A DNA stretch of 63,560 nucleotides, counting the filler, from Dugesia japonica (Eukaryota): NCBI GenBank assembly GCA_001938525.1. It is 6 parts of 6 records of this genome, joined end to end, with 100 filler letters (N's around TTAATTAATTAA, not from the genome) between each part and the next. Parts side by side here need not be neighbours in the genome. Positions count along the whole stretch, not along the records: positions 22,059 to 34,993 come from MQRL01626882.1; 5 more parts are not named here. One strand, given 5' to 3'. The translations under genes and the position numbers were made by a program. Below, in pieces: positions 22,059 to 34,993 of this stretch (positions within the stretch are counted from its first letter, which is position 1; each line of letters opens with the position of its first letter). The notes beneath the pieces are model-generated. The model did not search any database, was not told the origin of the DNA, and saw nothing but the letters and a program-made list of their open reading frames with translations.

Positions 22059-22459
22059 AAAAAAAAAATAACATGACGAAAATTGACCGTCAAATTTTAG
22101 TATCAAATTCTGCATGACGAAAATTGACCGTCAAATTTTAGTATCAAATTCTACATGACGAAAATTGACCGTCAAATTTTATATGTAAATTTTGCATGAC
22201 GAAAATTGACCGTCAAATTCTAGTATCAAATTCTACATGACGAAAATTGACCGTCAAATTTTAGTATCAAATTCTACATGACGAAAATTGATGGTCAAAT
22301 TCTAGAACCAAATTCTACATGGCGAAAATTGACCGTCAAATTCTAGTATCAAATTTTACATGACGAAATTTGACGGTCAAATTCTAGTATCAAATTCTGC
22401 ATGACGAAAATTGACCGTCAAATTCTGCATGACGAAAATTGACCGTCAAATTCTGCATG
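22059..22459 (+). repeat. Left TIR: ~10 tandem 41-bp units (catgacgaaaattgaccgtcaaattytagtatcaaattctr)
   Basis: Directly visible tandem array; reverse complement of 34709-34971. Confidence 0.95.
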
Positions 22460-22493
22460 AATTTAAGAGGATACCAAAATATTTCTTAATAAA

Positions 22494-23243
22494 ATGGAAC
22501 CAATAACAGAAGAAGCTTTATTAGAAAAATACATAGAAATTAAAAGAAATAATCTATTTATGAATGAGAAAGAAATAGCAATAGAATTAGGAATCACCAT
22601 AATTATGTTAAATAAAATATTAAGAAATAATGGTTTATTAAAAGAAAGAAAAAGAAACACAAGATTGAAATATAGCTATGATGAAAAAACAAAAAAATAT
22701 GTTGATGATATAAATGGAAATTTTATTTTTAATATTAAAAAAGATATTTTTGAATTAATCCAACCTCCAAATAATAATTTTAATTTAACAGAAAAAAGAA
22801 ATGAAATTGGTGGTAAAATTAATTATGAAACTACATTAGAAAAAATAATAACGGAAATCACGGCCAGAACAGAAAATGGTGATGTTTTAAATAAAGTAGT
22901 AAATGATGAAAAAATTAAAAGTGAAATATTAAAAGATTTAGAAAATACAATAAATAAATTACCCAAAGAAAAAGAAGAATTATTATTAAATATTTTACCA
23001 CAATATTTTATTTATAAAGAAGCCTTTATTCAAGAAAAACAAAAGAAAAATAGCATTAAAATAATTGGACTTGATATGAAACCAAATAAAGGTGTAATAC
23101 AATTAAAAGAAGAAAATATTTTTCTGAAATATATTATTTACTTTTTTATATTCATTTTTCTAATGTCTATATTTTATTTTATCTATAAATATTATACTGA
23201 TATTATAAATTATTTATATAATAAATGGCATCCATCGATTTAG
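22494..23243 (+). CDS. Polinton hypothetical protein with HTH-like N-terminus and hydrophobic C-terminal segment
   Basis: 249 aa ORF; EKEIAIELGITIIMLNKILRNNG; C-terminal IIYFFIFIFLMSIFYFIY. Confidence 0.55.
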   Translation: MEPITEEALLEKYIEIKRNNLFMNEKEIAIELGITIIMLNKILRNNGLLKERKRNTRLKYSYDEKTKKYVDDINGNFIFNIKKDIFELIQPPNNNFNLTEKRNEIGGKINYETTLEKIITEITARTENGDVLNKVVNDEKIKSEILKDLENTINKLPKEKEELLLNILPQYFIYKEAFIQEKQKKNSIKIIGLDMKPNKGVIQLKEENIFLKYIIYFFIFIFLMSIFYFIYKYYTDIINYLYNKWHPSI

Positions 23244-24493
23244 ATAATAATATTCAATTTTCACATACGGCAATTAAAAATGACATACTTAAAATTTCAC
23301 CATCTTCTGGTTCAATTAATAATTTAAATGCAAATGGAGATATCGTATTTCAATCTTTCCAATCTACAAATCCATTAGACATTTGTAATTCATTATTATA
23401 TTTTAGAATCGAAATAACAATACCAGAAACAGCAAAAGATAAAATCACTCTAGAAAATAACTTTTTACCAAGTTTATTTAAATCAATGAGATTAAATCTT
23501 GGATCAACAAATATTGAAACTATAAATGACCCTGGTGTAATATCAACAATGTTAAATTTATTAACCACAACTGAAACTTGGAAAAAACAATATGGCCAAT
23601 GTTCAGGTTGGATTCCAGATATTGACTCAGGTGATACAAAAAATAATTCTTATTTAATTAGACAAAAACATTATTCAAAGAATAAATTTGAAGGTTACTT
23701 TCAATTAAGAAATTTATTTGGCTTTATGCAAAATTATAATCGACTTTTATATAATACAATGATAGAATTTACATGCAACCATCAAATTGAAGATAAATTA
23801 ATATTTTATGGAGAAAAAGATTCAACAGCAACATTAAAAATAATAACTCTTGAACTGCATATTCCAGAAGTTAGATTATTACCAAAAACAGAATTAATTC
23901 TACTTGAAAGAATATCAACAGATCGACCAATTAAAGTTTGATTTTTAAATAGATTATCAGCAAAATCAAATTTAGATTCAGGTGGTTATTATTCAATTAA
24001 AATTAGCAGTCTAGCATATCAACCAAGATATATTTTAGTTTGTTTAAAAGATTCATTATATTCATATGAAAAGAATAATAATTTATTTATTCAAAAATCA
24101 ACAAAAGAAACAAAAAAATCTTATTTAAAAGGAATTCAATTGCAATTAAACAATACTTATTATCCAATTAACGAATGTAAATTTAACAAAGAAAATAATG
24201 AAATGATTTTTCCATACATGAATTATATAAAATGTTGTCATGAATTTTTAACAGAACCACAATTATCATTATTAGATTTTAGTAATCTTTATCCGATCTT
24301 CTGTTTTGATACCAGTGCACATGATGACAAAATGAATATTAATAATGTTGATGTCACACTTCATATTACAAAAGATCCAGATTTAAAAGGAACATTATAT
24401 TGGTGTATTCTCGAAGAAAAACATGTTGAAATGAAACTTGCTAACAATAAAATTGTTTTAGTTGAAAATATAAGAGGACTTGATATAAAATAA
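23225..24493 (+). CDS. Major capsid protein (double jelly-roll, hexon-like), ~422 codons with one in-frame TGA at 23939-23941
   Basis: ORFs 23225 and 24140 share a frame, and the bridge reads FLNR...QPRYILVCL...IQLQLNNTYYP. Polinton MCP-like motifs LENNFLPSLF, IETINDPGVISTM, LFGFMQNYNRLL, YPIFCFDTS. Confidence 0.85.
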
Positions 24494-24523
24494 ATATAAG
24501 AAATAGCGCAGCCAAAAACCATA

Positions 24524-33800: not shown

Positions 33801-34617
33801 CATTTGTCATCTTGATTCATAATATTAATAATTCCATATTTATTTTTAAATTTATCTGGTAATTCACAATAAGTTCTTCCACCTTTAATTCTTGATTTGT
33901 ATTTAATAAATTCTAATCTGTAATTAATAATATGGTCAAAACTCCAATTAGAATCTCTTCGTGATTGTTCATGAATAAAATTATCAACTTGTTCATATAA
34001 TTGATTTAATTTAGTTGGTATTGTTGATTTTGCATAAATTTTAGAATTTGAGGTATATGAATAAAATAATGATGTTCTATCTTCTTTTATATATTCACTG
34101 ACGACTACTATTTTCATATAGAAATTGTAACCTAGCTTGTAAAATTCGTTGACAGCATCTTCTATTTCTTTTTTAAGTGGAACAATTGAAGTTAAATTTA
34201 AATCGTCAACATATCGCATTAAACCTAAAGAACTATTTAATAAAACATTAATATGATAATCTGGATATGTTGTAGTGTTAAATACTTCTAAAATATGTTT
34301 TGGTCTTGTTTTCCAATTTTTATCTATTTTCTTTTGTAATAACAAATGTACTCTATCTATTAATTTGTGTTCTGCTAATAATTCAATTGTTGCAAAAAAT
34401 TTATCACAAAGTTCACAATATAATTTAATTCGGCCACAATTAGTTTTTTTAAAATGTGTATTTAGTCCAATTTGCGTTTTAAATTTTTTATTGCAAACGG
34501 GACATGGTATATAATCACTCTCATTTAATATAAAACATTTTTTGATAAAATATGTGATTTTAATCCACGTTTATTTTTAAATGTTTTATTACAACTATCA
34601 CAAGTAAGTGTAGTCAT
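30850..34617 (-). CDS. polB: Protein-primed family B DNA polymerase with three N-terminal zinc fingers; frameshifts at ~34540, ~33340 and ~32680
   Basis: YLDANSLY (motif A), KDMNNAFYGK (B), YSDTDS (C); exonuclease HNAMGYD, RFLDS, Y...DV..L; GGRTYCELP...IINIMNQDDKCLLYSIL. N-terminal CDSC..H, CPVC..H, CELC..H. Confidence 0.95.
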
Positions 34618-34708
34618 TTTTTATTTTTTCTTCTTTTTTTATAAAAAAAATTTAAGAGGATTACATTGTTGATAAAAATTTTGAGAAGATATATTTTCAT
34701 CATGTTTT

Positions 34709-34971
34709 GTCAATTTTCGTCATGCAGAATTTGACGGTCAATTTTCGTCATGCAGAATTTGATACTAGAATTTGACCGTCAAATTTCGCCATGTAAAATT
34801 TGATACTAGAATTTGACGGTCAATTTTCGCCATGTAGAATTTGGTTCTAGAATTTGACCGTCAATTTTCGTCATGTAGAATTTGATACTAGAATTTGACC
34901 GTCAATTTTTGTCATGCAAAATTTACATATAAAATTTGACGGTCAATTTTCGTCATGTTATTTTTTTTTTT
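34709..34971 (-). repeat. Right TIR: ~7 units of the 41-bp repeat, inverted
   Basis: Reverse complement of the left array, with the same variant units in mirrored order. Confidence 0.95.
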
Positions 34972-34993
34972 GAACTTTTTTGTATTTTTTATT

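What the first reader, a model, noticed from the sequence alone, without database searches (positions are those of the whole stretch)
22059..34993. TIR-to-TIR Polinton/adintovirus-like genome lacking integrase and packaging ATPase
Seen: both TIRs, pPolB and the virion module, but no rve integrase or Walker-A ATPase ORF. The element fills the entire contig, so no host flank or TSD is visible. Established: animal Polintons normally carry both genes. Options are a deletion derivative (favoured), one segment of a multipartite virus, or an integrase-less lineage. In-frame stops in capsid, protease and gasderminX-like genes indicate a decayed endogenous copy.
Basis: partly seen in the sequence, partly recalled or inferred. 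Interest (0 to 1): 0.7.

Follow-up and report, generated by a model that had tools for sequence, protein, structure and literature searches.

The report
Deleted, decayed Polinton copy
This is a broken copy of a virus-like jumping element (a Polinton) that lost its integration and DNA-packaging genes through one internal deletion, likely after it had settled in the host's chromosomes; its many relatives in the same genome still carry both genes, so it is an ordinary genomic fossil.

Summary
The absence is real but ordinary. Window 22059-34993 is one whole contig (G000:C626882) holding a Polinton-type element with inverted terminal arrays, pPolB, capsid and protease genes, and no integrase core or A32 ATPase. 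The cause is one internal deletion at 24781/24782. The ORF at 24500-24796 is the stump of the family's zinc-finger/PLA2/rve integrase gene, joined to the first 13 codons of an accessory gene. All 20 sister contigs that span this interval carry integrase and ATPase in 2.2-4.5 kb, against 144 bp here. By capsid tree the copy nests among integrase-bearing sisters. No second copy of the junction and no second contig with this terminal array was found, so segmented-virus and integrase-less-lineage readings fail. The copy has at least 4 in-frame stops and 5 frameshifts, pPolB included. Its true ends are missing, the junction is not confirmed in reads, and the 'gasderminX' label is unsupported. The family has 1,511 intact sites for one motif.

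The parts
22059..22460 (.). Left terminal inverted repeat, cut by the contig end: poly-A, 8 tandem 41-bp units and two 28-bp units; true terminus not assembled
22467..23243 (+). ORF of unknown function; N-terminal part shared with the first ORF of sisters (41-67% identity)
23225..24493 (+). Double jelly-roll major capsid gene, broken by an in-frame TGA at 23939-23941
   Evidence: PF21738 in both halves; open in most sisters
24527..24781 (+). Stump of the zinc-finger/PLA2/rve integrase gene; ends at the first residues of the PLA2 domain
   Evidence: 71% identical to residues 6-77 of a sister ORF that carries PF08398 and PF00665; 33 DNA matches end at 24777-24781
24777..24784 (.). Deletion junction; about 2-4.3 kb missing compared with sisters (rest of integrase gene, ATPase, most of an accessory gene); possible 2-5 bp overlap
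24782..24823 (-). First 13-14 codons of an accessory gene of unknown function, cut by the deletion
   Evidence: related N-termini in 9 sister ORFs; no Pfam family
24922..25551 (-).
25557..27846 (-). Repeat-containing ORF region of unknown function, with a frame change near 25913-25925
27861..28292 (-). Adenain-like cysteine protease gene, broken by TAA at 28029-28031
   Evidence: 63% identical to one sister ORF; another sister's protease resembles Peptidase_C5 clusters and hits PF00770 weakly, below the cut-off
28315..28988 (-). Putative minor capsid (penton) gene by position, frame change near 28524-28542; identity not confirmed
29064..30128 (-). Conserved ORF of unknown function
30119..30699 (-). 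Small protein gene with a hydrophobic N-terminal stretch and repeated G-x-G-L/F-Y-L/F motifs (pX-like by recall), frame change near 30502-30517
30850..34620 (-). [quoted passage not shown]
   Evidence: PF03175 and C2H2 hits
34709..34993 (.). Right terminal inverted repeat, cut by the contig end: 5 tandem 41-bp units, poly-T and 22 further bases; true terminus not assembled

Best explanation
It is a non-functional copy of a large endogenous Polinton/Maverick family that has lost its integrase core, packaging ATPase and most of one accessory gene through a single internal deletion, likely after an intact ancestor had inserted into the host chromosome with its own integrase. Shown: the family carries both genes at this spot; the copy keeps a stump of each gene flanking the gap; no second copy of it was found in the assembly; most remaining genes are broken. 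Inferred: the order (insertion first, then deletion and neutral decay), repair by end-joining over a few shared bases, and a fairly recent insertion (the two TIR arms differ at 3 of 262 sites). It can no longer copy, package or integrate itself.
For: 20 of 20 sister contigs holding both anchors (of 38 sister contigs examined) carry PLA2-rve integrase and ATPase between them, gap 2.2-4.5 kb against 144 bp (Pfam on 3 of them). At 49 sister sites none breaks off as the window does: 46 read on identically, 1 has a substitution, 1 an N, 1 a contig end. The break truncates two genes mid-frame. In the capsid tree the copy lies in a 21-row clade (support 100/99) whose other 20 rows all carry the integrase; pairwise dN/dS to 29 sisters is 0.16-0.36. 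Only this contig spans the junction among 40 scored of 3,728 candidates; the right side has one other match, at 78%. Stops use three different codons and sisters are open there, so this is decay and not another genetic code. Other sisters carry their own, different deletions or inversions (C647930, C549088, C599083, C605893, C525453, C529426). Runs X1, X2 and X4 hold contigs identical to parts on both sides of the junction at depth 3-11.
Against: No listed piece spans the junction (24 shown, 40,085 not shown), so it rests on the assembly alone. Flanks and target-site duplication are not in the contig, so chromosomal integration of this copy is inferred from its decay and from sisters with host-like flanks. 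Nothing here fixes whether the deletion came before or after insertion. The genome searches score only the best candidates, and collapsed identical copies would not show. One of the three runs may be the assembly's own sample.
Confidence: 0.8

Rival explanations
1. The deletion arose in replicating element DNA before insertion, and the shortened genome, which kept both TIRs, was integrated in trans by a helper copy's integrase (a non-autonomous, defective-interfering-like Polinton); point decay followed.
For: Both TIR arms are kept; helpers are abundant (1,511 intact motif sites; 149 ATPase candidates scored); a TIR-bounded sister lacks other core genes (C647930); polB-less insect Polintons that stayed mobile are reported (bioRxiv 10.1101/2025.02.07.637071, section read).
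Against: Only one copy of the junction and of the terminal array was found; deletions in sisters each differ, as expected of post-insertion accidents.
Confidence: 0.11
2. The gap is an assembly error: the real locus is full length and the middle was dropped or two pieces were misjoined.
For: Highly fragmented assembly (648,594 contigs) with a very repetitive family; no read-level piece seen across the junction.
Against: The contig has no N; no repeat longer than 2-5 bp at the junction; no near-identical contig continues either side (best other matches 82% left, 78% right); both halves share a terminal array found nowhere else.
Confidence: 0.06
3. It is one segment of a multipartite virus, or a member of an integrase-less lineage.
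For: Integrase core and ATPase are absent from the contig.
Against: No other contig shares the terminal array or the outermost 31 bases; closest relatives carry all genes on one molecule; the integrase gene is cut mid-domain, not cleanly absent; capsid, protease and polymerase are pseudogenes.
Confidence: 0.01
4. The deletion began with a cut by a GGNCC-specific element-borne nuclease, since the left break lies at a GGNCC site (24776-24780).
For: The site is one of only 4 GGNCC in the element; unchecked scan notes report introns and a predicted GGNCC nuclease at this site in another genome's Polintons; about 7 of 60 loci chosen for differing at this motif show local indels or a break (by eye, no control site).
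Against: The link is post hoc. GGNCC is not clearly depleted (window 4 vs 3.3 expected; six sisters 21 vs 26.4). None of those 60 loci, nor the 49 sites, holds an intron there. No match in this genome to RF00028 (28 of 56,892 candidates scored) or PF09553 (control silent, so uninformative).
Confidence: 0.02

Closest known systems
Defective (fossil) Maverick/Polinton copies of vertebrates (PMC8097293, passages seen)
   Same: Stops, frameshifts and loss of parts; the paper counts 96% of vertebrate copies as defective. Intact elements there are about 17 kb with AG-starting end motifs; full-length sisters here are about 16-18 kb and begin AGTA.
   Different: This family is far more numerous (1,511 intact motif sites, against at most 287 copies per vertebrate genome in the passages seen), and its integrase is fused to PLA2.
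Adintoviruses (PMC8502044; passages, section 3.2 and a supplement word search seen)
   Same: pPolB, rve integrase, FtsK/A32 ATPase, hexon-like capsid, adenain and a parvovirus-type PLA2 in the family; degraded endogenous copies are described.
   Different: There PLA2X is a separate gene with a pX-like end; here PLA2 opens the integrase ORF (in frame with rve in 13 of 19 sisters). No gasdermin similarity found. Alpha/Beta class not tested.
polB-less insect Polintons flanked by TIRs (bioRxiv 10.1101/2025.02.07.637071, one section read)
   Same: TIR-bounded Polinton missing a core gene while fuller relatives exist in the same host.
   Different: Those occur as groups of similar copies and so appear mobile; this one was found once and is heavily decayed.
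Maverick expansions in planarians (bioRxiv 10.64898/2025.12.11.693146 and PMC8532177, passages seen)
   Same: Large Maverick loads in AT-rich animal genomes are in print.
   Different: The host of this window was not established here; 'flatworm' comes from unchecked scan notes and my own guess.

Membership tests
Polinton/Maverick (autonomous element) | [quoted passage not shown] | tested here: met
   PF03175, E 9e-12; present but broken by two frame changes and a stop
Polinton/Maverick (autonomous element) | Retroviral-like (rve) integrase | tested here: not met
   Core absent from this copy; only the N-terminal stump remains. Present in 20 of 20 spanning sisters. So this is a derivative of a Polinton family, not an autonomous Polinton.
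Polinton/Maverick (autonomous element) | A32/FtsK packaging ATPase | tested here: not met
   Absent here; PF04665 in sisters, 20 of 20 spanning contigs
Polinton/Maverick (autonomous element) | Terminal inverted repeats | tested here: met
   259 of 262 aligned bases identical between the arms
Polinton/Maverick (autonomous element) | AG...CT end motifs | tested here: inconclusive
   Not in this contig, which ends inside the TIRs; AGTA-type ends read by eye in 10 sister ends
Polinton/Maverick (autonomous element) | 6-bp target-site duplication | not testable with these tools
   No flanks in the contig; in the one sister with both ends readable (C529426) the flanks are TA runs, so a duplication cannot be told
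Polinton/Maverick (autonomous element) | Double jelly-roll major capsid protein | tested here: met
   PF21738; broken by one stop
Polinton/Maverick (autonomous element) | Adenain-like protease | tested here: met
   A sister protein resembles Peptidase_C5 clusters (score 0.96-0.97) and hits PF00770 at E 0.0015, below the cut-off; the window copy is 63% identical to another sister's ORF; no PDB sequence match
Polinton/Maverick (autonomous element) | Single jelly-roll minor capsid (penton) | tested here: inconclusive
   No Pfam hit; model pLDDT 28; 19 unnamed homologues
Beta-class adintovirus virion module | GasderminX (gasdermin C-terminal domain homologue) | tested here: inconclusive
   No Pfam hit; atlas hits unnamed, SLATT_4 at 0.80; low-confidence model is a long helical hairpin whose named fold matches are mostly SLATT-type two-TM proteins at weak E-values. 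No sign of gasdermin, but no direct comparison with a published GasderminX sequence was made.
Alpha-class adintovirus virion module | Stand-alone PLA2X gene with pX-like end | tested here: not met
   PLA2 is the N-terminal part of the integrase ORF in sisters
Adintovirus (either class) | OTU-like domain and Alpha/Beta placement of PolB | not tested
   No polymerase tree with published references was built
Segmented linear pPolB virus | A second segment sharing the terminal sequence and carrying the missing genes | tested here: not met
   Terminal array and outermost 31 bases found only on this contig; searches are lower bounds

The most novel reading that the evidence does not exclude
The shortened genome was made during replication and was inserted by a helper's integrase, delivered in trans as part of a virion-borne PLA2-integrase polyprotein: an animal Polinton behaving as a defective-interfering genome inside a family with over 1,500 copies.
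Probability: 0.11. Interest if true: 0.4.

Novelty: new member of a known kind. Interest (0 to 1): 0.12.

Why it matters
As it stands it matters little: decayed and deleted Polinton copies are the rule in animal genomes. It is a clean negative for the idea of a segmented or integrase-free animal Polinton. Any value lies in the family around it: more than 1,500 sites of one motif, capsid genes diverged under purifying selection, a PLA2-integrase fusion and an apparent liking for TA runs. If deleted genomes like this one proved to be mobilised in trans, it would show how Polintons spawn non-autonomous passengers.

Tried and rejected
Alternative genetic code: rejected, the stops are TGA, TAG and TAA and sisters are open at the same places. 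Hidden integrase or ATPase in an unassigned ORF: rejected (Pfam on 18 ORFs; tblastn with sister proteins). Second segment or outer TIR on another contig: none found. Amplified deletion family: none found. GGNCC nuclease or group I intron at the break: no support; one search is uninformative because its control was silent. Expression: no RNA holder listed; in RNA run X12, 81 reads were laid and 99% ran on into unlike sequence, so nothing can be said. Summed contig depths are not copy numbers and were not used as such. Penton fold: model unusable. Protease against PDB sequences: no real match. TSD in sisters: not readable. Literature: searches gave no paper on this element and none, in the passages seen, describing a PLA2-integrase fusion; the library lacks most subscription papers and Repbase, the PMC8502044 supplement was cut when stored, and bioRxiv supplements were closed.

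Full report
Observation. The window is a string of contigs joined by spacers; 22059-34993 is one whole contig, G000:C626882, 12,935 bp without N. Both ends carry a tandem array of a 41-bp unit in inverted orientation: 8 full units and two 28-bp units on the left, 5 full units, one 28-bp unit and a partial one on the right, with unit variants in matching order. The arms agree at 259 of 262 aligned bases. Pfam on 18 ORFs finds pPolB (PF03175), a double jelly-roll capsid in two halves (PF21738) and C2H2 fingers, but no integrase or ATPase. tblastn with sister PLA2, integrase core and ATPase finds nothing better than E 0.19 in the element. The absence is real.

The family. The genome (854 Mb, 648,594 contigs) is full of relatives: 76 polymerase matches from 72 candidates scored of 19,131, and 126 capsid matches from 99 scored of 10,000. 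An exact 26-base degenerate motif at the start of the PLA2 domain occurs 1,511 times (reversed control 0), and two variants 137 and 61 times (controls 1 and 0). These are places in a fragmented assembly and may include alleles. No scored sister is close: the best capsid identity is 86-87%. Pairwise dN/dS between this copy's capsid and 29 sisters is 0.16-0.36, so the copies diverged mostly while functional.

What is missing and where. I fetched 38 sister contigs chosen from the hit lists for length or for holding both anchors. Twenty hold both the small zinc-finger ORF after the capsid and the two-TM gene; all 20 carry a PLA2-rve integrase ORF and an ATPase between them, over 2.2-4.5 kb, against 144 bp in the window. 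Pfam confirms PF08398, PF00665 and PF04665 in the three tested. The window's ORF at 24500-24796 is the start of that integrase ORF (71% identical to residues 6-77 of one sister). Of 39 non-self DNA matches to 24560-25060, 33 cover the left side and end at 24777-24781, 6 cover the right side, and none spans the junction (40 scored of 3,728 candidates). At 49 sister sites the frame reads on into PLA2 or cannot be read; none breaks off as here. On the other side, 24782-24823 holds the first 13-14 codons of a minus-strand accessory gene whose N-terminus recurs in 9 sister ORFs. So one deletion of roughly 2-4.3 kb cut two genes mid-frame. Agreement with left-hand sisters runs to 24780-81 and with 7 right-hand sisters back to about 24777, a possible 2-5 bp overlap; the patterns used to pick the sisters fixed some of these positions and the true parent is unknown, so this is weak.

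Not a lineage, not a segment. In a capsid tree of 33 rows (30 family copies, 3 public outgroups) the copy lies in a 21-row clade with support 100/99 whose other 20 rows all carry the integrase; its nearest row by path has integrase and ATPase; its exact sister pair is not resolved. The terminal array and the outermost 31 bases occur only on this contig, so no partner segment was found. These searches are lower bounds.

Decay. Against single sister ORFs the copy shows in-frame stops in capsid (23939-41), two-TM gene (25408-10), protease (28029-31) and polymerase (32683-85), and frame changes in the polymerase (two), the small hydrophobic ORF, the putative penton and the repeat ORF; one further break near 27350 is ambiguous because sisters differ there. 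Three stop codons are involved and most sisters are open, so no other genetic code is at work. About 1% difference between the TIR arms fits a fairly recent insertion followed by neutral decay (inference). Other sisters carry different deletions or inversions of their own (C647930, C549088, C599083, C605893, C525453, C529426).

Ends and flanks. Ten sister ends, read by eye, begin AGTA followed by A, T or G, 8 of them directly after TATA; seven other contigs gave no clear terminus. The window has no such end: the contig stops inside both TIRs, so 'TIR-to-TIR' does not mean complete, and no target-site duplication can be read. Three runs from three samples and studies (X1, X2, X4) hold contigs identical to parts on both sides of the junction at depth 3-11, but none of the 24 listed pieces spans it and 40,085 were not shown (which covered 22462-29400 only). 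One run may be the assembly's source. The junction therefore rests on the assembly; misassembly is unlikely because there is no gap, no repeat at the join and no near-identical continuation elsewhere.

Labels checked. Protease: a sister protein resembles Peptidase_C5 clusters and hits PF00770 below the cut-off. Penton: not confirmed. 'GasderminX': no Pfam hit, unnamed atlas hits, and a low-confidence model (pLDDT 55) of a long helical hairpin with weak matches to viral two-TM proteins, several SLATT-type; the label is unsupported, though not compared with a published GasderminX sequence.

Mechanism. Most likely an intact element inserted with its own integrase, then lost the segment by a chromosomal deletion and decayed (0.8). 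Shown are the family gene order, the two stumps, the lack of a second copy in the searches and the broken genes; inferred are the order of events and the repair path. The main rival is deletion during replication and insertion in trans (0.11); polB-less insect Polintons that stayed mobile are a precedent (bioRxiv 10.1101/2025.02.07.637071, passages and one section). Misassembly gets 0.06. A lead from unchecked scan notes, that this GGNCC site is a nuclease and intron target in another genome's Polintons, matched the left break but found no support here: no clear GGNCC depletion, no intron in 60 loci chosen for differing at the motif (30 of 137 and 30 of 61), no RF00028 match among 28 candidates scored, and an uninformative PF09553 search.

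Comparison with what is known. Polintons are defined by pPolB plus rve integrase, and nearly all long animal contigs have integrase and FtsK-type ATPase (PMC8502044, passages and section 3.2; supplement word search). In vertebrates 96% of copies are defective (PMC8097293, passages). ATPase was identifiable in 83% of Polintons in an earlier survey (PMC4028283, passages). Large Maverick loads in planarians are in print (bioRxiv 10.64898/2025.12.11.693146 and PMC8532177, passages); the host here was not established. PLA2 is described as a separate ORF in insect Mavericks (PMC5803895, passages) and adintoviruses. Passages of PMC3671162, PMC6431247 and PMC10748475 added nothing on this. The PLA2-integrase fusion of this family is common in public proteins (92 of 120 listed hits carry both domains, counted by eye; in frame with rve in 13 of 19 sisters). 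I did not find it in the passages from searches, but the scan has noted it in another genome (e1-9115377), and in this copy it survives only as a stump.

Verdict. A defective derivative of a Polinton family, not an autonomous Polinton and not a new virus type. Novelty: new member of a known kind. Interest 0.12.

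Noticed in passing
L044:2665-3909, L046:3094-4125, L049:5727-6944 and other sisters: The family's integrase ORF is a zinc-finger/PLA2/rve fusion with GGD motifs before PLA2 (17 of 19 sisters) that recall adenain cut sites (recalled consensus); the same two-domain architecture is in 92 of 120 listed public homologues.
   Followed up: partly
Ends of G000 contigs C646343, C529426, C590975, C547506, C538034, C647930, C644866, C595021: Eight of 10 readable sister termini follow directly on TATA or (TA)n runs, hinting at a target preference for TA repeats (by eye, no background test).
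   Followed up: partly
window 22462 and 34651; sister ends: A 9-base motif TTTAAGAGG lies just inside both TIRs, before the first ORF at each end, and recurs in many sisters; a possible element promoter motif.
   Followed up: no
window 22071-22460 and 34709-34958: The 41-bp unit contains a palindrome (TTGAC-N-GTCAA); each sister has a different subterminal tandem array.
   Followed up: no
window 57125-60461 (another contig): PLA2-domain ORF (PF08398, E 6e-13) on the minus strand next to a geminivirus-Rep-like ORF (PF08283, E 1.5e-4) and an SF3-helicase-like ORF (PF00519, E 7e-6): a possible endogenous single-stranded DNA virus.
   Followed up: partly
G000:C647930 (L139, L154): TIR-bounded 13-kb sister that lacks the polymerase C-terminal part; about 180 bp outside the AGTA end is also identical and inverted at both contig ends, possibly an assembly effect.
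   Followed up: no
G000:C630205 (L058): Two polymerase genes lie head to head on one contig.
   Followed up: no
L175-L201: A subfamily reads GPN instead of GPG at the start of the PLA2 domain and makes up much of the 137 variant sites.
   Followed up: no
window 8834-9217: Mariner-type transposase fragment (PF01359) on another contig.
   Followed up: no
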